This document shows, in pieces, positions 3,600-56,141 of a stretch of 60,400 bases of DNA (the first letter of the stretch is position 1; every line of letters begins with the position of its first letter). Made by a program: the position numbers and the translations under genes. The DNA comes from Candidatus Saccharimonadota bacterium (GTDB lineage Bacteria > Patescibacteriota > Saccharimonadia > Saccharimonadales > OFTM59), in NCBI GenBank assembly GCA_029260875.1, contig JAJDCL010000011.1, forward strand, positions 1 through 60,400, in the 5' to 3' direction. The notes below the pieces were generated by a model, which was not told the DNA's origin, did no database searches, and saw only the letters and a program-made list of their open reading frames with translations.

Positions 3600-3996
3600 T
3601 GGTGGAGCTGGCGGGGATTAAACCCGCGTCCGCTAGTTTAACTGGTTAGTCTATCCTACAGGTATAGGTCATTTGAATACTGTAAAACGTGAAAATGACC
3701 AAAAGGTTCTACAGGTTGATCCTGGTCTTAGTTCAGCTACGGATCAATCGCTAAAGGCAACCAGATAAATTGGCGTGCGCTAACATTATCTGATGTCACG
3801 CTAGGCACGGCTATAGACAATTAAGCTACAGCTGGTGCGAAAGTTTGTACGCTAAAAGAAGCCATAACAGCCTCTTTCATTGCAACAAGTTTTTCGCGGA
3901 ATGATGTTTTTGCATCTATTCGGTTTTGCCTATACGCTGGCAAGCGACCTGCTGATCTAACCGTTAAAGTCCAACGTCGAGCTAAATATCAGCCCC
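3600..3996 (-). ncRNA. ssrA: tmRNA (SsrA)
   Basis: Minus strand starts GGGGCTGATATTTAGCTCGACG and ends GCGGGTTTAATCCCCGCCAGCTCCACCA (tRNA-Ala-like acceptor/T-arm with CCA). An internal reading frame ends ...TFAPAVA-TAA. Confidence 0.85.
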
Positions 3997-14750: not shown

Positions 14751-14825
14751 TGGTGATCCCGAGGGGAATCGAACCCCTGTTGCCAGGATGAAAACCTGGT
14801 GTCCTAACCGTTAGACGACGGGACC
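14751..14825 (-). tRNA. tRNA-Glu(UUC), CCA encoded
   Basis: Minus strand GGTCCCGTCGTCTAACGGTTAGGACACCAGGTTTTCATCCTGGCAACAGGGGTTCGATTCCCCTCGGGATCACCA folds as a cloverleaf. Anticodon loop UU-UUC-AU. Confidence 0.9.
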
Positions 14826-29181: not shown

Positions 29182-29258
29182 TGGAGGGCCAGGAGGGACT
29201 CGAACCCTCGACATTCTGCTTAAGAGGCAGACGCTCTAACCAGCTGAGCTACTGGCCC
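29182..29258 (-). tRNA. tRNA-Lys(CUU), CCA encoded
   Basis: GGGCCAGTAGCTCAGCTGGTTAGAGCGTCTGCCTCTTAAGCAGAATGTCGAGGGTTCGAGTCCCTCCTGGCCCTCCA. All four stems pair. Anticodon loop CU-CUU-AA. Confidence 0.9.
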
Positions 29259-31665: not shown

Positions 31666-31742
31666 GCGCCCGTAGCTCAGCGGATTAGAGCGACTGGCTT
31701 CGGACCAGTAGGTCGGGGGTTCGAATCCCTCCGGGCGTACCA
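31666..31742 (+). tRNA. tRNA-Arg(UCG), CCA encoded
   Basis: GCGCCCGTAGCTCAGCGGATTAGAGCGACTGGCTTCGGACCAGTAGGTCGGGGGTTCGAATCCCTCCGGGCGTACCA. Anticodon loop CU-UCG-GA. G1.U72 wobble. Confidence 0.88.
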
Positions 31743-38621: not shown

Positions 38622-41222
38622 TTAGTCCTCCATAACCCTGATTATTTTTCTATTAGCAGGATCAAAGCTTACTCGTTCACCAGTCTTTAAGTGTTTTGAT
38701 TTAACGCCGCCGATTGCACCACGTCCAAGCTCACGGGCACGTTGTGCGCCGTGTGAAACAAGCCCAGCATTCTCAATTACAATGCCGTCTGCGGCTACAA
38801 TCAGTGGGTCGTGACTTAGGTTCATTTGTGACGCAACCAATATGACTTGAGAGCCTTCGGCCTTAGCTTTTTCTATAGTTTCCATAGCTGCTTTCGGGTC
38901 ATCGTAGTCATCAATGTTTACAATAACACCGTTAGCAATTAACGCCCCCTGTGCCAGTAGCTTACCAGCCATTTCTCTAACCAGCTCGTCTTTATCTGAT
39001 GTAAGTTCAAGGTTTGCTATGTCTACTTCTCTTATGACGGCAGGCATTTCAAGTTCTGGGTAGTTGGCAAACGCTTGCTGGCGTTCGTTAATGGTCAGTC
39101 TGAAGCTTGCAGTACTGGTAGCAAGTTGCGGTATTTCTCTAGGGTACACAGAAAATATTGCATCTGGCTCTAAGCCTAAGCCGCTACTTAATTCCAGCAG
39201 GGCTTTTCTGGCCAAGCCATACTCAGCCACAAAATAGTATTTAACGGTTTCACGCAGAGCCATATACGTCTGTGTAGCCGTTAATATCTGGTCAAAGTCT
39301 GCTGTTTTTTCAGCTCCCAGCTTGTCACGGACTTCCTTTTCTAGCACAAGTCGTGCATGTTGCTGTTTTGCAAATTCGCCAATATACAAATCTTTATTTT
39401 GATATATACCCTCAACATAAGTCTTTAGATTTTCTTCATCTTCGCTCAATCGTGGGTGACGTATTTCAAGCATTTCACCCGTGCTGTAGTGACCCACTTG
39501 ATCCCTACCAATTGCTAAGGCTTCTTCAAATGAACTAACGTTGGCTATCGCAAGATTGGCGTCCGTAATTGCGCTGCCATTTAGTCCCTGCGTTAGCTTA
39601 CTGAATAAATCTTCTGCTTGGTCGGGTGTAACAGCCATTTCTTCCTGCAAGTAGCTTTGAAGCCGCTGGGAATAGTAAAATCCAAGTCTTGCCGCTTTCA
39701 CAAAATTCACACACGACTCATTACGCAAATGTTCCAAGACATCAAAAATGTAGTTTTGTAACTCGTCATTACTAAGCTCTTGCAAGGGAACTTTCGCCAT
39801 ACTTTCCAGATAGTTTACCTCGGCAGGTAAATGAATGGTTTGGTAGTCACCTAAAAAGGTGTCAGCGTGTCCAGCCAATGAATCACGGAATCGTAAGTAA
39901 GTAGCGTAGTACGCATCTGCTTGGTCACCAAACCGCTCTTGAAGCTGTTCAAGTGTCGGGTCTTGTAAGTACAAACCCATCTCTGGATATTCACCTTTTG
40001 AGGGGTCGTCTTCTACGGCGTTTAGATACTCCGCTACTAAAGATTTGTTGTACTCCTCTATGCTGGCAGGGTAGCCCGCATAAAAAGTATGTGCGTCTCT
40101 AGCTAAGCTAAAGTATGGCTTGCCACCAATCAGGTGCATAAAGCCTACTGACTGGTCGCCAAGTGGATAGTTCATTTGCTTACGGCCAATTTGTATAGCA
40201 CCTGCGACACCATCACTACCAGTGAATATGTATGCAAATATGCCGATGTCCATCTCCTTTGGTCTTGGCATAATTTCACTAAAGTTGCTGTCACTAAATG
40301 TGACGCTCTCACTGCTAAGTTCGTCTTTCTCTGCCTGAACTAAAGCAGTAATTTGTGACTTCACGGCTGTTAGTGTTTCGGCTGGCGTTTCACATAGCTC
40401 AACGTCACTAAGCTCTGCTGTAAGCGGGCGGGCTTGCAGTATTTGCAGCCTGCCATCTTCTATGGCAAACTCAATGTCCTGCGGTAAGCCACCGAAAAGT
40501 TGTTTGATAGTCTGAGCGTTGGCATTAAGTTGCTCTAAATTTTCCGCTGTAAGCGGGTTAGTAGTGAAGCCCTTGGATTGGGTAATTGCTCCGGCCTGAT
40601 TTACCAAAATTGAGCTGCCTTCCTTAACACCATCCACTAGTTCCGCCCCGAAGCCATCAACATACTGCACTAATACGTTGTCGCCAGCTACATCTGTGTA
40701 AAGCACGCCTGATTTATCTGCTGGAACGAGTCGCTGTACTACAAGCCCCATTTTTACTTGGTCGGGTTCGTAGCCGTGCAGGCTCAGTAAGTCGGCTACA
40801 TCGGCTGAACGTGACTGGTCATATATCGCTGCCATAGCCGAGCTAACTTCTTGGTCTTCGTCAAATAGGTAGTGCGTATCAAACACACCAGCCATACTCA
40901 CATCAGCACCATCTTCACAGGTTGCTGAACTACGCACCGCTATTTGCCCACCAAGGCTACTGCGAATGGCTTCAAGTTCCCCAACGAGTGACGGGTCAAT
41001 GACGCCATTTTGCAAGTAATAGTCGTGAGCGGAGGCACTTATACAAACACCTTCAGGAACAGCTATGCCGTGGTTAGCCATAGTCGCTAGGTGTAAGGCT
41101 TTGCCGCCAACAACTGCTCGGTCTCTGTCACTAATCTGGTTAAATGTTTTTACGAACGGGTGGTCAGCCACTAAAGGCTCACCTTGTTCGTAATAGTTAA
41201 TTGTTTCGTAGTTATTCATCAT
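38622..41222 (-). CDS. PEP-utilising-enzyme family phosphotransferase with rifampicin-phosphotransferase (RPH) architecture
   Basis: 866 aa. N-terminal PPDK_N/ATP-grasp (VGGKALHL..., AVRSSATCEDG, LVVQRLV), a long middle domain, and the swivel domain at the extreme C-terminus (GLVSHGAQRARELG). No PEP/pyruvate TIM-barrel domain. Confidence 0.8.
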   Translation of the reverse strand: MMNNYETINYYEQGEPLVADHPFVKTFNQISDRDRAVVGGKALHLATMANHGIAVPEGVCISASAHDYYLQNGVIDPSLVGELEAIRSSLGGQIAVRSSATCEDGADVSMAGVFDTHYLFDEDQEVSSAMAAIYDQSRSADVADLLSLHGYEPDQVKMGLVVQRLVPADKSGVLYTDVAGDNVLVQYVDGFGAELVDGVKEGSSILVNQAGAITQSKGFTTNPLTAENLEQLNANAQTIKQLFGGLPQDIEFAIEDGRLQILQARPLTAELSDVELCETPAETLTAVKSQITALVQAEKDELSSESVTFSDSNFSEIMPRPKEMDIGIFAYIFTGSDGVAGAIQIGRKQMNYPLGDQSVGFMHLIGGKPYFSLARDAHTFYAGYPASIEEYNKSLVAEYLNAVEDDPSKGEYPEMGLYLQDPTLEQLQERFGDQADAYYATYLRFRDSLAGHADTFLGDYQTIHLPAEVNYLESMAKVPLQELSNDELQNYIFDVLEHLRNESCVNFVKAARLGFYYSQRLQSYLQEEMAVTPDQAEDLFSKLTQGLNGSAITDANLAIANVSSFEEALAIGRDQVGHYSTGEMLEIRHPRLSEDEENLKTYVEGIYQNKDLYIGEFAKQQHARLVLEKEVRDKLGAEKTADFDQILTATQTYMALRETVKYYFVAEYGLARKALLELSSGLGLEPDAIFSVYPREIPQLATSTASFRLTINERQQAFANYPELEMPAVIREVDIANLELTSDKDELVREMAGKLLAQGALIANGVIVNIDDYDDPKAAMETIEKAKAEGSQVILVASQMNLSHDPLIVAADGIVIENAGLVSHGAQRARELGRGAIGGVKSKHLKTGERVSFDPANRKIIRVMED

Positions 41223-41366: not shown

Positions 41367-41621
41367 TTATTGTTTCCTCAAGACTTTGAACCTGCCCTGT
41401 GATAGCTCTTTAGAGCCACGAGTAACAGTAGCTATGCCTACACCCAAATCACTAGCGATCTTAGCTTGGGCTTCACCAGCCAGCAGCCGCTTAATAATCT
41501 CAAGCCGCTGGGCAAGCTCTCGCCTTTCTTTATCGGTTGTAATACCAACAAGGAAGTCTGCAAGCAGTTGCTTGTCACGGGTAGAGTAGGTTAGTTCTAT
41601 AAAGTCATTAAAATCTGACAT
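41367..41621 (-). CDS. Trp-repressor (TrpR/YerC-YecD) family protein
   Basis: LTTDKERRELAQRLEIIKRLLAGEAQAKIASDLGVGIATVTRGSKEL parallels E. coli TrpR ...[23 protein letters not shown]...GAGIATITRGSNSL (from memory). Confidence 0.8.
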   Translation of the reverse strand: MSDFNDFIELTYSTRDKQLLADFLVGITTDKERRELAQRLEIIKRLLAGEAQAKIASDLGVGIATVTRGSKELSQGRFKVLRKQ

Positions 41622-41636
41622 AAGGTATATACTAGC

Positions 41637-41654
41637 ACACTAGTACGCTAGTGT
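41637..41654. promoter_or_regulatory. CTAG-containing 18-bp palindrome ACACTAG-TACG-CTAGTGT (TrpR-type operator candidate)
   Basis: Perfect 7+7 inverted repeat 16 nt upstream of the TrpR-like ATG, with a third ACTAG at 41631-41635. It lies in the 114-bp divergent region shared with the AbiEii-like gene. Confidence 0.55.
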
Positions 41655-41735: not shown

Positions 41736-43193
41736 GTGATAACCCCTGATGAAATCCTGTCTAAGGCTAACTCCGAAGGCATAAATACCAGTAATGTCCA
41801 ACGTGACTATATATTTAGCTGGATTCTTGCTGGTTTGTATCGCCAGAGCAGCCTCGCTAACCAGCTAGTTCTAAAGGGCGGTAACTTGTATCGCAAAGCG
41901 TATTACCCATCAACCAGATTTTCTAATGACCTAGACTTTACTACCGAAACGGGTGTGGACGAATCAAACCTGCTGAACGAACTTAACGGCATCTGCGAGT
42001 ACATTACTTCCGAAACGGGAATCCAATTTGAGTACGACAAAAACGCCATCATTGACGAGCATTTCATCAGCGATACCAAATCAGCCTATAAAATTCGGTT
42101 GTATTTTAAGGACTTCTTCGGGCAAGAAAGCAACATGGTACTAAAAGTGAACCTTGATATTGCTCAGTTTGATAAAATCTACTTGCAACCAATTAAAACA
42201 CCTCTTATACACCCGTACTCAGACGCTACTTTGCTTAGTACAGATATTATGGCAATGAGGCTTGAGGAAGCACTGGCAGACAAGCTCAAATGCTTAATCC
42301 AGCGAAGGCACTCGTTTGACTTGTTTGACCTTGTACACGCTATTTTTATAGATAAAACCATTGAGGTTGATAAATCGGAGATGGTTCGGGTATTTTTGAA
42401 GAAAACCATTTTTGAGCGAAGCCCCGGTGCCGCAAAAAATCTATTGGTTGGTGTGCCCTTTGACCTGATGAAGGACTTTTGGTCAAAACTCGTATGCCCG
42501 AAGGATACACTCTTTGCATTTGACGAAGCAGTCGGTATGTTCAGCTCTAGTCTGGCAGGTCTTTTTGATAGTTTCGGTGTGGGTCATGCCTCGGAGTTGG
42601 CATTTTATCCAGCCGGCCTACGTAACAAAATTATGGACGCCGGACAGAGTAAGAAGCTCCTGAGAATGACGTATCAGGGTGCAACTAGAGACGTTGAACC
42701 ATACTCGCTGAAGTATCAAACTACTAAAGATGGTACAGGCCGTGAGTATTTCTGGGGCTACGATAGAACTGGTGGCAACAGTGGTCATGTTGGTATAAAA
42801 GCATTCCTCAACCAGAGTGTTCAATCCTTAGAAGTAACTGACAAGACGTTTGAGCCACGCTTTGAAATTGAAGTTTCAAAAGCTGGCGAGATACATGACA
42901 GTCTTAGTTTTAGTAAGAGTGGCCGCCGAGTTGCTAACATTCTCGGTACGCCCTCTAGCAATCGCAGAGTTCCACCTAAAGGGCTTGGTAGGCGAAGAAC
43001 AAGAGGCTTCAGCGGCTTTGGTGAAGACAAGAAGTATATTATCCAGTGTACTGTCTGCTACAAAAAGTTTTATCGTACAAATCAATTTGATACTACACTC
43101 AATTCACATAAGCGGCCAAAGGCAGGACGGTCTCACTACGCACAAGATTGTTATGGTAGCTACGGCAGGTATATTGGGCAAAAGAGACGCTGA
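41736..43193 (+). CDS. AbiEii/AbiGii (DUF1814, MenT-like) nucleotidyltransferase fused to a WYL-like domain and a basic Cys/His tail
   Basis: N-terminus LVLKGGNLYRKAYYPSTRFSNDLDFT (AbiEii signature). Residues ~310-380 read LRMTYQGATRDVEPYSLKY...REYFWGYDR...IKAFLNQSVQSLEVTDKTFEPRF (WYL-like). Tail CTVCYKKFY...H...C. GTG start. Confidence 0.7.
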   Translation: MITPDEILSKANSEGINTSNVQRDYIFSWILAGLYRQSSLANQLVLKGGNLYRKAYYPSTRFSNDLDFTTETGVDESNLLNELNGICEYITSETGIQFEYDKNAIIDEHFISDTKSAYKIRLYFKDFFGQESNMVLKVNLDIAQFDKIYLQPIKTPLIHPYSDATLLSTDIMAMRLEEALADKLKCLIQRRHSFDLFDLVHAIFIDKTIEVDKSEMVRVFLKKTIFERSPGAAKNLLVGVPFDLMKDFWSKLVCPKDTLFAFDEAVGMFSSSLAGLFDSFGVGHASELAFYPAGLRNKIMDAGQSKKLLRMTYQGATRDVEPYSLKYQTTKDGTGREYFWGYDRTGGNSGHVGIKAFLNQSVQSLEVTDKTFEPRFEIEVSKAGEIHDSLSFSKSGRRVANILGTPSSNRRVPPKGLGRRRTRGFSGFGEDKKYIIQCTVCYKKFYRTNQFDTTLNSHKRPKAGRSHYAQDCYGSYGRYIGQKRR

Positions 43194-43218: not shown

Positions 43219-43340
43219 GGGCAGTTTATATTGGATTTGAGCTATTATAGGTAAGGAACAGTGACCTAACCTGTTCTATAATGCTGTACCAAACGAGATT
43301 GATTAGTAGACACTAGAACGGTGTCTCTTGTTATACTGAA

Positions 43341-43832
43341 GTGATGGAAGACCTAACGCAAAAATGGGCAATTATTGCCCTAATGGAAAACGTGCAAGAT
43401 GGCGCGGAATTCTACTATACCGATTTTCCACTTCACATAACCCTTGCTGGAGTCTTCGCAATAAATAAGAAAGGTTTGTGGCTTGCAGAAAGGCTAACAA
43501 ATTTATTAATGGACCAGAAGACGTTTAAGATTCAGACGGGTAAAAAAGATATGTTTGGGCCAAATAAAGATGTGGCTGTCATGAAAATTATGAAATCTCC
43601 AGAACTATTGGGTATGTACAATAAAATCCACAGTTGGCTGCTAGAATCGGGAGCTATTTATAACGAGCCTCAATACCAAGGGTATGGTTATCTACCTCAT
43701 AGTACTTTTCAAAAGTCGGGTTTACTCAATGAAAACGAAGTACGACAAATAAAATCAGTTTCGATAATTGACTTGTTTCCAAACGGTGACGGTTATAAGC
43801 GCAAAGTATTTAAAACTATAGAGCTCAAATAA
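43341..43832 (+). CDS. 2H phosphoesterase superfamily protein (LigT / 2'-5' RNA ligase-like)
   Basis: Two H-x-T/S motifs at the expected spacing: FPLHITLAG and YLPHSTFQ. 163 aa. Confidence 0.6.
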   Translation: MMEDLTQKWAIIALMENVQDGAEFYYTDFPLHITLAGVFAINKKGLWLAERLTNLLMDQKTFKIQTGKKDMFGPNKDVAVMKIMKSPELLGMYNKIHSWLLESGAIYNEPQYQGYGYLPHSTFQKSGLLNENEVRQIKSVSIIDLFPNGDGYKRKVFKTIELK

Positions 43833-44555: not shown

Positions 44556-45839
44556 TTAATACCTTTGCATGGCATAAATATGCTGGTTATCGAAATGCCT
44601 ATTGTCAAGATAATTGACAGAACCTGCTACACTCACAACCAGATTATCCCCGACGCTTAATGGTTTGTGGTTCCTGCCAAAGGACTGCTGATTACTACGA
44701 CTATAGTCAAGCGTCCAAAGTGTGCCAGATGAACTTTTAATAACAATCGAGGAATTGGTTATGCTTGTAATTTTCCCTTGTGTATTACGAATGATAAGGT
44801 CTTTCGGAGCGCGAGATGAATCAAGCACTGCCCCACCAAATGGTATAACGTCTGGGTTGTTGTAGGGCTGCTTAGGTGACTTGGTGAATACATATAGACT
44901 TTCACCGTCAGTGGAGCCTTGCTTGTCTGAGTCACACAGATCAGCACCATTGTTTAGGCAGATATTCGTAGCACCACCCCAAGAAGGCTCAAAGATTGTT
45001 CTAGTCTCGTCCTTTTCACCTTTAGTGCCTTGGGCTGATTCCTGAATACTGGCAAGGTCATGTGATAGCCCGAATACAAAGTATTGTGTAATTGAAGATG
45101 GTTTGCTGAATGATCCAACGCGGTGCTCCAAGTATGCATCTTGGTACACAATAACCACATCGCCTATAGTTAACGCACTTGGGTCGGCAATTTCACCTTG
45201 TTTATAGAAGCTTACTCGCTCCTTGGGTATGTCGATATATTCAACAACCTGTCTACTAGGCTCTATTTTATCACCAACAATAAATTGTTTATAAATTCTT
45301 ACCGTTTGAGCATTTACACTTTCGATAGTACCTGTCCAAGGATATACATATTTCGTATTGTATGGGTCACTAACATGCTCAACACCATTTTTAGGAATTT
45401 GAAAAGCGTTGCTAGCCCGAAAGTGCAAGTCTGATACAGTATTTAGTTCGGCGTATGCCGTAATTGCTGCGTCGCTATAGTTGTGCTTAGATCCATACTG
45501 AAATTTCCGTCCTTCATATTCTACTTCTACAGTCTTGCCTCCATTTATAAGTTTGCGGATTAAGGCTACGGGGTTGGTGCCCGAAGCGTAGGCATAGCCA
45601 GTAAATGACAACGACATAGCCATAACAATTACTATACCGACTGCTAATGCTCGATGTACTTTAACGAATCTCATGAACAAGTTCTCCTTCTGGTTTACCT
45701 TCGTTGTACGAAGAACTTCGCCAAAAGTTTCACTAGTCTTTGCTTTTTTAATCGCATTTAGAGTACGTGTAACAAATTCCTTATTCCCACGACCATGTGG
45801 TTGGGAGTCGATAATTCGTGTTTCTATATTATCTTTCAT
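44556..45839 (-). CDS. putative anti-sigma factor / membrane-anchored extracytoplasmic protein
   Basis: The start ATG overlaps the sigma-factor stop (ATGA at 45836-45839). Single TM ALAVGIVIVMAMSLSFTGYAYA after a ~70-aa cytoplasmic segment. Confidence 0.5.
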   Translation of the reverse strand: MKDNIETRIIDSQPHGRGNKEFVTRTLNAIKKAKTSETFGEVLRTTKVNQKENLFMRFVKVHRALAVGIVIVMAMSLSFTGYAYASGTNPVALIRKLINGGKTVEVEYEGRKFQYGSKHNYSDAAITAYAELNTVSDLHFRASNAFQIPKNGVEHVSDPYNTKYVYPWTGTIESVNAQTVRIYKQFIVGDKIEPSRQVVEYIDIPKERVSFYKQGEIADPSALTIGDVVIVYQDAYLEHRVGSFSKPSSITQYFVFGLSHDLASIQESAQGTKGEKDETRTIFEPSWGGATNICLNNGADLCDSDKQGSTDGESLYVFTKSPKQPYNNPDVIPFGGAVLDSSRAPKDLIIRNTQGKITSITNSSIVIKSSSGTLWTLDYSRSNQQSFGRNHKPLSVGDNLVVSVAGSVNYLDNRHFDNQHIYAMQRY

Positions 45840-46354
45840 GACATCTTCTCCTTTAGTTGGAGTTTCGCTCTTCGAATCCAAGTTCGAGTGGTGTTTAGGG
45901 GCACGCCCTCTGCCTCGGCTATTTCTTGATAGCTCTTACCGTCCCAATAATATGCCTCAATTACTCGTTGGTACTCTGGGGGGACTAAGCTTTCCACCGC
46001 TCTCCTCATTTCTGCACGTTCCTCATCTTCCATATAAGTCGGCATAGTAGCTTCAGCTAAGCTTTCAACATCTTCTACGGTCATAGTACGTCTGTTTTTT
46101 CTAAGATGATCCAGTGCCAAGTTGGTAGCAATTTTGTACAGCCATGTAGAAAAACGTGATTTATCTGAATCGTATGTTTTAAGTTGCAAATAAGCCTTCA
46201 CAAAGGCTTCTTGTGCTATATCTTCAGCATCGTGACGGTCTTTAACAATTCGTTCACAATGAATGATAAGACCAACATGATACCGCTCAACTAGCTCAGC
46301 ATATCGATCAGCACCAGCAATAATTTCTTTTATAGTTTGTTCTTCATTTTTCAT
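45836..46354 (-). CDS. ECF-type sigma-70 family RNA polymerase sigma factor
   Basis: Region 2 DAEDIAQEAFVKAY...FSTWLYKIATN. Region 4 SYQEIAEAEGVPLNTTRTWIRRAKLQLKE. Confidence 0.85.
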   Translation of the reverse strand: MKNEEQTIKEIIAGADRYAELVERYHVGLIIHCERIVKDRHDAEDIAQEAFVKAYLQLKTYDSDKSRFSTWLYKIATNLALDHLRKNRRTMTVEDVESLAEATMPTYMEDEERAEMRRAVESLVPPEYQRVIEAYYWDGKSYQEIAEAEGVPLNTTRTWIRRAKLQLKEKMS

Positions 46355-54129: not shown

Positions 54130-54204
54130 GCGGGATTCGTATAGCGGTTAATATAAAAGTTTTCCAAACTTTGGACACCGGTTCGACTCCGGTATCCCGC
54201 ACCA
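54130..54204 (+). tRNA. tRNA-Gly(UCC), CCA encoded
   Basis: GCGGGATTCGTATAGCGGTTAATATAAAAGTTTTCCAAACTTTGGACACCGGTTCGACTCCGGTATCCCGCACCA. Anticodon loop UU-UCC-AA. Confidence 0.88.
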
Positions 54205-54281
54205 GCCCCGGTAGCTCAGCGGATTAGAGCAAGTGGGTTCTAACCATTAGGTCGGGGGTTCGAATCCCTCCCGGGGTACCA
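54205..54281 (+). tRNA. tRNA-Arg(UCU), CCA encoded
   Basis: GCCCCGGTAGCTCAGCGGATTAGAGCAAGTGGGTTCTAACCATTAGGTCGGGGGTTCGAATCCCTCCCGGGGTACCA. Anticodon loop GU-UCU-AA. Starts on the base after the tRNA-Gly CCA. Confidence 0.85.
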
Positions 54282-54717: not shown

Positions 54718-54792
54718 GGTGCCCGTAGTTCAATGGTAGAACGCCGCTTTGTGGAGGCGGTCACGGGAGTTCGATTCTCCTCGGGCACCCCA
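54718..54792 (+). tRNA. tRNA-His(GUG) with encoded G-1 and CCA
   Basis: G-GTGCCCGTAGTTCAATGGTAGAACGCCGCTTTGTGGAGGCGGTCACGGGAGTTCGATTCTCCTCGGGCAC-C-CCA. G-1 lies opposite C73. Anticodon loop UU-GUG-GA. Confidence 0.88.
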
Positions 54793-56064: not shown

Positions 56065-56141
56065 TGGTCGGAATGGGCGGATTCGAACCGCCGACCTCCG
56101 CGTCCCGAACGCGGCGCGCTACCAAGCTGCGCTACACTCCG
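56065..56141 (-). tRNA. tRNA-Pro(CGG), CCA encoded
   Basis: CGGAGTGTAGCGCAGCTTGGTAGCGCGCCGCGTTCGGGACGCGGAGGTCGGCGGTTCGAATCCGCCCATTCCGACCA. Anticodon loop UU-CGG-GA. Confidence 0.88.

What the first reader, a model, noticed from the sequence alone, without database searches (positions are those of the whole stretch)
41736..43193. AbiEii/MenT-type nucleotidyltransferase fused to a WYL-like sensor and a Cys/His basic tail, with no AbiEi antitoxin
The N-terminal ~280 aa carry the AbiEii signature (KGGNLYRKAYYPSTRFSNDLDF). Residues ~310-380 look like a WYL/Sm-fold domain (RDVEPYSLKY...YFWGYDR...FEPRF). The last ~60 aa are very basic and contain CxxC...H...C. Canonical AbiEii toxins are ~300 aa and sit downstream of an AbiEi (wHTH) antitoxin gene. 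Here the upstream neighbour is a divergently transcribed TrpR-like gene. A toxin-sensor fusion suggests cis auto-regulation by a ligand.
Basis: partly seen in the sequence, partly recalled or inferred. Interest (0 to 1): 0.7.

Follow-up and report, generated by a model that had tools for sequence, protein, structure and literature searches.

The report
Antitoxin-less AbiEii–WYL–zinc-finger nucleotidyltransferase
This gene encodes a toxin-type nucleotidyltransferase fused to a WYL domain and a zinc finger; the fusion is common and already catalogued, but this branch of the family has lost the antitoxin gene that accompanies the same fusion in its sister branch.

Summary
ORF 41736-43193 (+, 485 aa, GTG start) has four parts. 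An AbiEii/MenT nucleotidyltransferase (NTase) with every catalytic motif invariant. A WYL/Sm-like barrel: the top 17 Foldseek hits are DriD, BrxR and CapW. A disordered basic linker. An invariant C-C-H-C zinc finger. It is one gene, not a frameshift: over 100 homologues from many phyla keep the whole layout.

No AbiEi gene lies in the 60 kb window or beside about 80 homologues. No neighbouring gene is conserved at all. The TrpR-like neighbour belongs to its own TrpRS operon.

The fusion itself is not new. Makarova et al. 2014 list WYL fused to AbiGII-like NTases. A large sister clade has the same three-part layout (hhalign probability 100%), passes Pfam's WYL threshold, and was preceded by an overlapping AbiEi-like gene in all five independent loci examined. 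So WYL and the zinc finger did not arise as an antitoxin replacement.

What remains of interest is a horizontally spread, antitoxin-less clade with a divergent WYL domain. My best reading is a self-contained defence or toxin NTase, gated or targeted by its C-terminal nucleic-acid-binding module. That mechanism is inferred, not shown. Interest is moderate.

The parts
41736..43193 (+). Whole gene: 485-aa AbiEii-WYL-zinc-finger protein (GTG start, stop at 43191-43193)
   Evidence: ORF list. Full-length homologues at 98-100% coverage down to about 40% identity. AF2 model pLDDT 87.7, pTM 0.77.
41736..42605 (+). Residues 1-290: AbiEii/MenT-type nucleotidyltransferase domain, made of the NTase core plus a helical subdomain
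   Evidence: PF08843, 70.4 bits. PADLOC AbiEii E 1e-43. Foldseek MenT4 6y56 E 2.4e-8 and TglT/MenT3 6j7p E 7.8e-8. Motif alignment to MenT4.
41874..41939 (+). Residues 47-68, KGGNLYRKAYYPSTRFSNDLDF: the active-site motifs. They include the invariant K47 G48 G49 N50, R61, S63 (the position of the MenT/AbiEii phospho-acceptor Ser/Thr), D65 and D67.
   Evidence: Invariant in 112 sequences. Aligned to MenT4 KGGTSLRK...RFSTDLDF. The role of the Ser/Thr comes from PMC11375011 and bioRxiv 10.64898/2026.01.19.700257.
42606..42851 (+). Residues 291-372: divergent WYL (Sm-like) domain, a helix 293-304 followed by five strands
   Evidence: Secondary structure and pLDDT above 90. Foldseek top 17 are DriD, BrxR and CapW, probability 1.00. 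PADLOC WYL E 7e-4. Pfam WYL matched by 13 of 36 family members, sub-threshold. Homologous over its full length to clade A, whose WYL passes Pfam's threshold.
42852..42899 (+). Residues 373-388: conserved extension after the barrel (FEPRFEIEVSKAGE; F372, P374, E379, K382, A383 and G384 nearly invariant)
   Evidence: Alignments A1 and A2. Also conserved in clade A as F.PRYAVELTP.GP.
42900..43022 (+). Residues 389-429: Arg/Lys-rich linker of variable length, predicted disordered
   Evidence: pLDDT below 50 over residues 389-429. Poorly conserved in A1. It is the fastest-evolving segment against the more distant relatives.
43023..43190 (+). Residues 430-485: C2HC zinc-finger module (C438, C441, H458, C472), BED/C2H2-like by sequence
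   Evidence: The four ligands are invariant in 112 sequences. zf-BED is matched by 24 of 36 members, best E 1.3e-5, and zf-C2H2 by 18 of 36. Weak PDB C2H2 hits. pLDDT about 87-91 in the full model.
41367..41621 (-). Neighbour, not part of the system: a divergently transcribed 84-aa TrpR-like gene. It heads the gene order TrpR-like, PPDK-like, histidine phosphatase, TrpRS.
   Evidence: PF01371 E 2e-15. The same gene order is found in L096 and L097. In L096 a different gene occupies the site of the NTase.
41630..41653 (.). Operator-like array of three CTAG motifs at 8-bp spacing inside the minus-strand promoter of the TrpR-like gene. This is context, not part of the NTase system.
   Evidence: Sequence. 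Promoter-like site with -35 at 41657-41652 and -10 at 41634-41629.
43341..43832 (+). Downstream neighbour: a 163-aa 2H/LigT-like phosphoesterase. It is not conserved next to homologues and is probably unrelated.
   Evidence: PF13563 E 2.6e-8. Terminator-like hairpin at 43308-43326 between the two genes. Absent downstream in L002, L084 and L088.

Best explanation
The gene encodes a member of the long AbiEii family. The N-terminus is a MenT/AbiEii-class nucleotidyltransferase. These enzymes, where studied, add nucleotides to tRNA 3' ends and arrest translation. It is followed by a WYL (Sm-like) domain, a basic disordered linker and a C2HC zinc finger.

The family has two clades. The large clade A keeps an overlapping upstream AbiEi-like antitoxin gene. 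The window's clade B has no AbiEi and no other conserved partner, and moves as a single-gene cassette between unrelated genomes and variable, often defence-rich, sites.

Most likely clade B is a self-contained toxin/abortive-infection-type effector. The catalytic centre is intact. The C-terminal WYL-linker-zinc-finger half binds single-stranded nucleic acid. That binding either releases an intramolecular block on the NTase or brings the substrate to it, so that no separate antitoxin is needed.

Shown here: domain identities, conservation, absence of AbiEi, mobility, purifying selection. Inferred: toxicity, tRNA or RNA as substrate, a nucleic-acid ligand for WYL and the zinc finger, cis gating, a defence role.
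For: NTase identity and intact catalytic motifs. WYL fold. Full-length homology to clade A, hhalign probability 100%, E 3e-58; clade A's WYL passes the Pfam threshold. Invariant CCHC ligands and BED/C2H2-like hits.

In five of five independent clade A loci there is an overlapping AbiEi-like gene, 61-75% identical between loci. An HMM built from those proteins finds nothing in the window's six frames or in about 90 clade B loci. Pfam and PADLOC scans of 79 upstream and 143 flanking ORFs find no AbiEi and no family in more than 3 loci. BLAST clustering gives no conserved neighbour.

The context differs even among relatives 71-88% identical. Homologues occur in Saccharibacteria, Actinomycetota, Acidobacteriota, Proteobacteria, Chloroflexota, Planctomycetota, Parcubacteria and one archaeal MAG. 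Flanks often carry RM, TIR, AbiV, CBASS, IrrE, recombinase or integrase genes.

dN/dS is about 0.02 against the 88% relative.

From the literature: WYL domains of DriD, CapW and PafBC bind ssDNA (PMC10853764, PMC11662680, PMC11804915). MenT/AbiEii toxins act on tRNA and are switched off by antitoxin-induced autophosphorylation of the Ser/Thr before DxD (PMC10435456, PMC11375011, bioRxiv 10.64898/2026.01.19.700257). Here S63 is invariant.
Against: No experiment exists for any AbiEii-WYL protein in the literature searched.

Clade A has the same WYL and zinc finger and still keeps an antitoxin. The C-terminal half is therefore not sufficient evidence for self-regulation.

The clade B WYL is divergent. 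It is sub-threshold in Pfam and has an invariant Glu (E337) beside the motif position where CapW has an ssDNA-contacting Arg (against PMC11662680). This mapping was done by eye, not by structural alignment. The ligand may not be ssDNA.

I could not inspect inter-domain contacts in the model. Many flanking genes are housekeeping, so the defence-island context is suggestive and was not quantified against a baseline. Only 60 kb of the genome is visible, so an unlinked antitoxin cannot be excluded. S. agalactiae AbiE gave no phage protection in E. coli in the one screen read (bioRxiv 10.64898/2026.01.19.700257).
Confidence: 0.5

Rival explanations
1. Substrate-targeting model. The WYL-linker-zinc-finger half is not a sensor but a nucleic-acid-binding arm. 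It directs a constitutively active NTase to a particular, non-essential or foreign single-stranded RNA or DNA 3' end. The enzyme is then not toxic to its host and needs no antitoxin.
For: In enzymes, WYL domains are known as accessory single-strand binding modules; PIF1 helicase and the Cas13d accessory protein WYL1 are examples (my own knowledge). A basic disordered linker plus a BED/C2H2-like finger is typical of nucleic-acid binding. Clade A keeps AbiEi in addition to the same C-terminal half, so that half must do something other than antitoxin work.
Against: The closest characterised NTases (MenT1/3/4, AbiEii) are growth-arresting toxins (PMC10435456, PMC11375011). The distribution is patchy and mobile. 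The frequent defence or mobile-element context fits conflict systems better than a benign RNA-processing enzyme.
Confidence: 0.25
2. The antitoxin exists but is unlinked or non-homologous. Candidates are an AbiEi or MenA-type protein elsewhere in the genome, a host kinase/phosphatase circuit acting on S63, or lineage-specific small upstream genes.
For: Only 60.4 kb of a 128-kb contig is visible. About a quarter to a third of clade B loci have some upstream ORF that overlaps or abuts the start, but of unrelated families. MenA antitoxins are structurally diverse (PMC11375011).
Against: In the window the upstream 114 bp is non-coding and the next gene is divergent. No family recurs in more than 3 of about 78 loci. 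TA genes are almost always linked because they move together, and this gene clearly moves alone.
Confidence: 0.15
3. Orphan, functionally decaying or domesticated toxin remnant left after loss of AbiEi, with no current role in conflict.
For: Frameshifted or truncated copies exist (L091, L094, L095), though two of the three sit in error-prone assemblies.
Against: All catalytic residues, the WYL core and the four zinc ligands are invariant across 112 sequences from many phyla. dN/dS is about 0.02. The reading frame is intact in about 80 genomes.
Confidence: 0.05
4. Assembly or frameshift artefact: two genes (an AbiEii toxin and a downstream WYL antitoxin/regulator) wrongly read as one ORF.
For: None beyond the unusual length.
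Against: The same contiguous architecture is found in more than 100 independent homologues and in clade A. The identical protein is found in a second assembly (L097). The apparent standalone C-terminal proteins examined were broken copies: two frameshift-split genes and one truncated remnant.
Confidence: 0.01

Closest known systems
Clade A long AbiEii proteins (AbiEi-like + AbiEii-WYL-zinc-finger operons), e.g. WP_100922825.1 on Candidatus Thiodictyon syntrophicum plasmid pTs417, and Defluviimonas and Neorhizobium 'WYL domain-containing protein'
   Same: Same length (about 475-490 aa) and the same order: NTase, WYL, FxPRYxVEL extension, basic linker, CxxC...H...C finger. Homologous over the full length: 26% identity, BLASTP E 2e-50; hhalign probability 100%.
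   Different: Clade A has an overlapping upstream AbiEi-like gene in five of five independent loci examined, and a canonical WYL that passes Pfam. The window's clade has no AbiEi, a divergent WYL with an inserted TGG..G loop, and a different helical subdomain over residues 226-290.
AbiE / MenAT toxin-antitoxin systems (AbiEi-AbiEii of Lactococcus and S. agalactiae; MenA-MenT1/3/4 of M. tuberculosis; AbiGi-AbiGii)
   Same: DUF1814/PF08843 NTase fold and catalytic motifs, including the Ser/Thr before DxD.
   Different: Canonical toxins are about 290-300 aa, have no WYL or zinc finger, and are always paired with an adjacent antitoxin. Here there is a 195-aa C-terminal extension and no partner gene.
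WYL-domain regulators that sense ssDNA (DriD, CapW, BrxR, PafBC)
   Same: The Sm-like WYL barrel is the best structural match for residues 291-372. These proteins share an association with defence and DNA-damage signalling.
   Different: Those are wHTH-WYL-WCX transcription factors. Here the WYL sits on an enzyme with no HTH and no WCX, and the CapW-type RWHVR arginines are not evident (E337 is invariant).
   Same: Conceptual analogue only: a single polypeptide, an N-terminal enzyme acting on tRNA 3' ends, a C-terminal regulatory half with a zinc-finger-like element, and no separate antitoxin.
   Different: Unrelated folds (RelA/SpoT-type against DUF1814 NTase). Autoinhibition and a phage trigger are demonstrated for CapRel and only hypothesised here.

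Membership tests
AbiEii/MenT (DUF1814, PF08843) nucleotidyltransferase toxins | Significant match to the family profile | tested here: met
   PF08843 70.4 bits against a cut-off of 22.5. PADLOC AbiEii E 1e-43.
AbiEii/MenT (DUF1814, PF08843) nucleotidyltransferase toxins | Catalytic motifs: GG-x motif, R-x-S/T-x-D-x-D, a third acidic residue, and a Lys followed by acidic residues in the helical motif | tested here: met
   K47 G48 G49 N50, R61, S63, D65, D67, D141, E177 E178, K183, R190, D195 and D198 are invariant in 112 sequences. Aligned to MenT4 motifs.
AbiEii/MenT (DUF1814, PF08843) nucleotidyltransferase toxins | MenT-like three-dimensional fold | tested here: met
   Foldseek on the AF2 model: MenT4 6y56 E 2.4e-8; TglT/MenT3 6j7p E 7.8e-8.
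AbiEii/MenT (DUF1814, PF08843) nucleotidyltransferase toxins | Growth-arresting NTase activity on tRNA | not testable with these tools
   Needs expression and biochemical assays.
AbiE / MenAT two-gene toxin-antitoxin system | Adjacent cognate antitoxin gene (AbiEi/COG5340 or MenA) | tested here: not met
   No AbiEi in the window neighbours. None in 79 upstream or 143 flanking ORFs of homologues. The clade A AbiEi HMM finds nothing in the window or in about 90 loci.
WYL domain (PF13280) | Match to the Pfam profile above the gathering score | tested here: not met
   Window protein: 13.4 bits against 21.8, E 0.08. PADLOC WYL E 7e-4. 13 of 36 family members give sub-threshold hits.
WYL domain (PF13280) | Homology to bona fide WYL domains | tested here: met
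   Full-length hhalign probability 100%, E 3e-58, to clade A. Clade A's domain scores 33.6 bits against 21.8 and is annotated PF13280 in all 120 listed members.
WYL domain (PF13280) | Sm-like fold: N-terminal helix plus a five-stranded bent sheet | tested here: met
   Helix 293-304 and five strands, pLDDT above 90. Foldseek top 17 hits are DriD, BrxR and CapW, followed by Sm, LSm and Hfq proteins.
WYL domain (PF13280) | Conserved ligand-contacting residues (e.g. CapW S144, R164, R168, R184) and ligand binding | tested here: inconclusive
   The family has its own invariant set (R296, Y313, R318, E321, P322, E337, Y338, D343). No residue-level structural alignment was available. E337 sits beside the motif position where CapW has an Arg (PMC11662680). 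Binding itself cannot be tested here.
C2H2/BED-type zinc finger | Four conserved metal ligands with CxxC ... H ... C/H spacing | tested here: met
   C438, C441, H458 and C472 are invariant. The H-to-C spacing is 7 residues in most members and 13 in the Saccharibacteria subgroup.
C2H2/BED-type zinc finger | Profile match and beta-beta-alpha fold | tested here: inconclusive
   zf-BED in 24 of 36 members, best E 1.3e-5; zf-C2H2 in 18 of 36. PDB C2H2 hits at E 0.016-0.5. The AF2 model shows a beta-hairpin knuckle but no helix.
Fused (single-polypeptide) toxin-antitoxin, CapRel-like logic | The C-terminal domain autoinhibits the N-terminal toxin and is released by a phage cue | not testable with these tools
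   Only the architecture and the lack of a partner gene are shown. Truncation, toxicity and phage assays are needed.

The most novel reading that the evidence does not exclude
Clade B, including this gene, is a true single-gene immune sensor-effector. After loss of AbiEi, the divergent WYL-zinc-finger half took over both jobs. It holds the AbiEii NTase off, perhaps by promoting S63 autophosphorylation in cis. It releases the NTase on binding a phage-derived single-stranded nucleic acid. This would be a DUF1814 counterpart of the CapRel fused toxin-antitoxin. The mosaic, faster-changing WYL segment among close relatives would then reflect an arms race at the sensor.
Probability: 0.3. Interest if true: 0.65.

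Novelty: new variant of a known kind. Interest (0 to 1): 0.4.

Why it matters
AbiEii/MenT toxins are currently understood as two-gene systems in which the antitoxin switches the toxin off by inducing its autophosphorylation. This clade keeps every catalytic residue and the phospho-acceptor serine. It has nonetheless discarded the antitoxin in about 200 species across many phyla, including reduced-genome Saccharibacteria.

It therefore gives a natural test of whether a WYL domain can gate an enzyme directly, rather than a transcription factor. It also tests what keeps a DUF1814 NTase harmless without AbiEi.

It has practical value for annotation as well. These genes are labelled 'AbiEii/AbiGii toxin family protein'. 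Defence-system finders that require the AbiEi+AbiEii pair would be expected to miss them.

Tried and rejected
- Frameshift or two-gene reading: rejected by conservation of the whole architecture.
- TrpR-like gene as regulator or antitoxin: rejected. It is absent next to every other homologue examined and belongs to a conserved gene order with PPDK-like and TrpRS genes. In L096 a different gene occupies the NTase site.
- LigT-like downstream gene as partner: not conserved next to homologues.
- RNA antitoxin (type III repeats) or a known RNA element in the flanks: none found.
- Standalone WYL-zinc-finger proteins as evidence of a split system: the short hits were contig-end fragments, frameshift-split genes (L094, L095) or a truncated remnant (L091).
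- Other N-terminal partners for this WYL-zinc-finger module: a profile search of 1.84 billion representatives found only this family, its forms without the zinc finger, and fragments among the strong hits.
- Phage-encoded relatives: none by tblastn against 50,697 phage records and none meaningful in BFVD. Only 5 plasmid records match.
- A broad literature query using the term 'MenT' was uninformative because of word-fragment matches.
- dS is saturated, so per-domain dN/dS could not be obtained beyond the closest pair.
- Organism name: the cluster look-up gave no names. Saccharibacteria is inferred from the closest named homologues, at 75-78% identity.
Full report
**1. The observation**

The window holds an uninterrupted ORF at 41736-43193 (+), 485 aa, with a GTG start. 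Its N-terminus, MITPDEI, coincides with the N-termini of its homologues.

- Pfam places an AbiEii nucleotidyltransferase (NTase) domain on residues 31-220: PF08843, 70.4 bits against a cut-off of 22.5. PADLOC's best AbiEii model covers residues 1-237 at E 1e-43.
- The same PADLOC scan gives a weak WYL hit on residues 291-379, E 7e-4.
- The upstream neighbour is a divergent 84-aa TrpR-like gene. The downstream neighbour is a LigT/2H-like phosphoesterase.

**2. One gene, widely conserved**

A search of 5.8 billion proteins returned more than 1,600 hits. The best 120 are nearly all 450-485 aa and cover 98-100% of the query down to 43% identity. Named examples are a Saccharimonadales MAG (77%) and Kribbella (46%).

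Alignments of 31 and 112 sequences show these invariant features:
- NTase motifs: KGGN 47-50, R53, K54, R61, S63, D65, D67, D141, E177, E178, K183, R190, D195, D198.
- A conserved middle domain: R296, Y313, R318, E321, P322, E337, Y338, D343. Residues K382, A383 and G384 in the extension that follows are nearly invariant.
- A variable basic stretch over residues about 389-430.
- Four invariant metal ligands: C438, C441, H458, C472.

This rules out the frameshift, two-gene alternative.

A scan of one genome per species (185,579 species) found 207 relatives. The 80 loci retrieved span Saccharibacteria, Parcubacteria, Actinomycetota, Acidobacteriota, Alpha- and Gammaproteobacteria, Chloroflexota, Planctomycetota, Bdellovibrionota and one Promethearchaeota MAG. 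A subset in Amycolatopsis, Streptomyces, Kribbella and Poribacteria ends at about residue 400 and lacks the zinc finger.

**3. Domain identities**

An AF2 model built on the 112-sequence alignment is confident: pLDDT 87.7, pTM 0.77. Only residues 389-429 are disordered.

- NTase. Foldseek against the PDB matches it to MenT4 (6y56, E 2.4e-8) and TglT/MenT3 (6j7p, E 7.8e-8). A profile search aligns the KGG...RFSxDLDF and EKL...DLYDL motifs to MenT4.
- Middle domain. Residues 293-371 form a helix followed by five strands. A separate model of residues 283-485 gave, as its top 17 PDB matches, only WYL proteins: DriD, BrxR and CapW. These have probability 1.00, 90-100 aligned columns and rmsd 2-4 Å. 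Sm, LSm and Hfq proteins follow. At sequence level the WYL signal is sub-threshold: Pfam E 0.08 for this protein, and 13 of 36 relatives hit with best E 2.7e-3.
- Tail. It matches zf-BED in 24 of 36 relatives (best E 1.3e-5) and C2H2 families in 18 of 36. PDB C2H2 hits are weak. The model shows a CxxC beta-hairpin knuckle but no helix, so the exact finger class is open.

**4. No antitoxin, no conserved partner**

In the window, 114 non-coding bases separate the gene from the divergent TrpR-like gene.

Across the homologous loci:
- BLAST clustering of all ORFs within 4 kb found no family shared beyond scattered recombinases and XRE regulators at varying positions.
- Pfam scans of 79 same-strand upstream ORFs, and of the 143 nearest flanking ORFs, found no AbiEi family and nothing present in more than three loci. 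PADLOC agreed.
- Relatives 88%, 77% and 71% identical sit in three entirely different neighbourhoods: AAA_5/VWA; HTH-methyltransferase-TraG-like; and Hypoth_Ymh/DUF4747/IrrE.
- Only the 99% identical copy shares the window's context.
- A relative whose PPDK-like protein is 83% identical keeps the TrpR-like to PPDK-like order. It has a different small NTase where the window has this gene.

The gene is thus a mobile single-gene cassette in a variable site. The TrpR-like gene belongs to its own unit. It even has three CTAG motifs at 8-bp spacing between the -35 and -10 of its promoter-like site.

No repeats or Rfam elements that could be an RNA antitoxin flank the gene.

**5. The finding that changes the interpretation**

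A tblastn search of plasmids found a 26%-identical, 482-aa homologue on a Thiodictyon plasmid. It aligns over 95% of the query, including the zinc finger (...YIYQCGLCGKKFRR...LNPHK...). Its WYL domain passes Pfam's threshold at 33.6 bits. It is preceded, 10 nt upstream, by an annotated AbiEi-family gene that hits AbiEi_4.

Searching with it returned a saturated list. The best 120 are all 444-491 aa and all annotated AbiEii+WYL. Some are named 'WYL domain-containing protein'.

In five independent loci (Thiodictyon, Rhizobium sullae, Defluviimonas, an unnamed 3.6-Mb contig, Phyllobacteriaceae) the upstream gene overlaps or abuts the NTase gene. These upstream genes are 61-75% identical between loci.

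Profile-profile comparison of the two clades gives probability 100%, E 3e-58, over 443 columns. It spans the NTase, the WYL domain, the extension and the finger.

An HMM of the clade A AbiEi-like proteins recovers them at E about 1e-154. It finds nothing at E up to 1 in the six-frame translation of the whole window or of about 90 clade B loci.

Hence the three-part fusion predates the split of the two clades. One clade is a two-gene AbiE-type system. The other, the window's, is antitoxin-less.

**6. Prior knowledge**

- Makarova et al. 2014 (PMC4012209) already list WYL fused to 'AbiGII-like nucleotidyltransferase (DUF1814)' and propose it as a ligand sensor regulating AbiG-like systems.
- I found no experimental work on any such fusion.
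- MenT toxins extend tRNA acceptor stems (PMC10435456).
- MenT and AbiEii are neutralised when the antitoxin induces autophosphorylation of the Ser/Thr just before DxD (PMC11375011; bioRxiv 10.64898/2026.01.19.700257). The equivalent S63 is invariant here.
- WYL domains of DriD, CapW and PafBC bind ssDNA (PMC10853764, PMC11662680, PMC11804915).
- The CapW-type RWHVR arginines are not obvious in this family. E337 is invariant next to the motif. I treat the ligand as unknown.

**7. How it most likely works**

Shown:
- An intact MenT/AbiEii catalytic centre.
- A conserved WYL barrel, a basic linker and a CCHC finger.
- Strong purifying selection: dN/dS about 0.02 against the 88% relative, with dS saturated.
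- Solitary mobility, often beside defence or mobile genes: TIR, AbiV, HsdM, S_4TM, NADAR-DarT1, IrrE, recombinases, and CBASS next to a remnant copy. Housekeeping genes are also among the neighbours.

Inferred:
- The NTase is a translation-arresting effector.
- The C-terminal half binds single-stranded nucleic acid.
- In the antitoxin-less clade that half gates the enzyme (sensor model, preferred) or delivers its substrate (rival).

Because clade A retains AbiEi with the same C-terminal half, that half cannot simply be a fused antitoxin. Clade B must have gained tighter self-control or lost self-toxicity.

One hint of sensor-like evolution is a mosaic pattern. The closest relative is 93% identical in the NTase and 86-89% in the linker and finger, but only 74% in WYL. 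A relative with a 73% NTase has an 80% WYL.

**8. Verdict**

The architecture is known and common. The antitoxin-less clade with a divergent WYL domain is, as far as the searched literature shows, undescribed and uncharacterised. I rate it a new variant of a known kind, of moderate interest (0.4). The organism is probably a Saccharibacterium, judged from the nearest named homologues. The cluster look-up gave no names.

Noticed in passing
window 41630-41653 (with promoter-like -35 at 41657-41652 and -10 at 41634-41629, minus strand): Three CTAG motifs at exact 8-bp spacing (tACTAGcacACTAGtacgCTAGTg) lie between the -35 and -10 upstream of the TrpR-like gene. This resembles tandem Trp-repressor operator half-sites. 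It suggests autoregulation of a TrpR-like, PPDK-like, histidine phosphatase, TrpRS unit in this probable Saccharibacterium.
   Followed up: partly
L100-L106 (clade A loci), e.g. L100:4194-6449: A very large sister clade of about 480-aa AbiEii+WYL+zinc-finger proteins. In all five independent loci examined it is preceded by an overlapping or abutting gene of about 215-269 aa, AbiEi-like and 61-75% identical between loci. No experimental study of this two-gene variant was found.
   Followed up: yes
window 42606-42899 compared with P0002, P0003, P0012, P0013: Mosaic similarity. The WYL segment of the window protein is only 74% identical to its otherwise closest relative (93% in the NTase). It is 78-88% identical to relatives with more distant NTase domains. 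This suggests recombination or accelerated change confined to the WYL module.
   Followed up: partly
L037, L041, L042, L054, L055, L072, L074; P0311, P0334, P0338, P0339: A sub-group of about 385-415 aa in Amycolatopsis, Streptomyces, Kribbella and Poribacteria ends just after the WYL domain. It lacks the basic linker and zinc finger, so the finger is dispensable in some lineages.
   Followed up: partly
L091:3908-4594: A truncated copy (equivalent to residues 229-480 only) is seen on 12 contigs from one study. It sits beside a CBASS operon (SMODS, HORMA, Cap8, AAA) and an IrrE/HTH pair. The 183-aa ORF in front of it has no detectable similarity to the NTase.
   Followed up: partly
L096:8-703: In a relative with the same TrpR-like to PPDK-like arrangement, the position of the AbiEii-WYL gene is taken by a 231-aa minimal nucleotidyltransferase (NTP_transf_2/Polbeta). 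This marks the site as a variable locus.
   Followed up: partly
window 44556-46354 (minus strand): An ECF-type sigma factor (172 aa) overlaps by 46 nt a downstream 441-aa protein with no Pfam match. This is possibly a sigma/anti-sigma pair. GC content drops to 0.39-0.43 across 43-47 kb.
   Followed up: no
window 3600-3996 (-); 14754-14825, 29185-29258, 31666-31739, 54130-54278, 54719-54789, 56068-56141: A tmRNA gene and seven tRNA genes were detected by Rfam.
   Followed up: no
window 38622-41222 (-): An 866-aa protein with PPDK_N and PEP-utilizer mobile domains lies between the TrpR-like gene and the histidine phosphatase/TrpRS genes. This is an unusual partner for a Trp-related operon.
   Followed up: no
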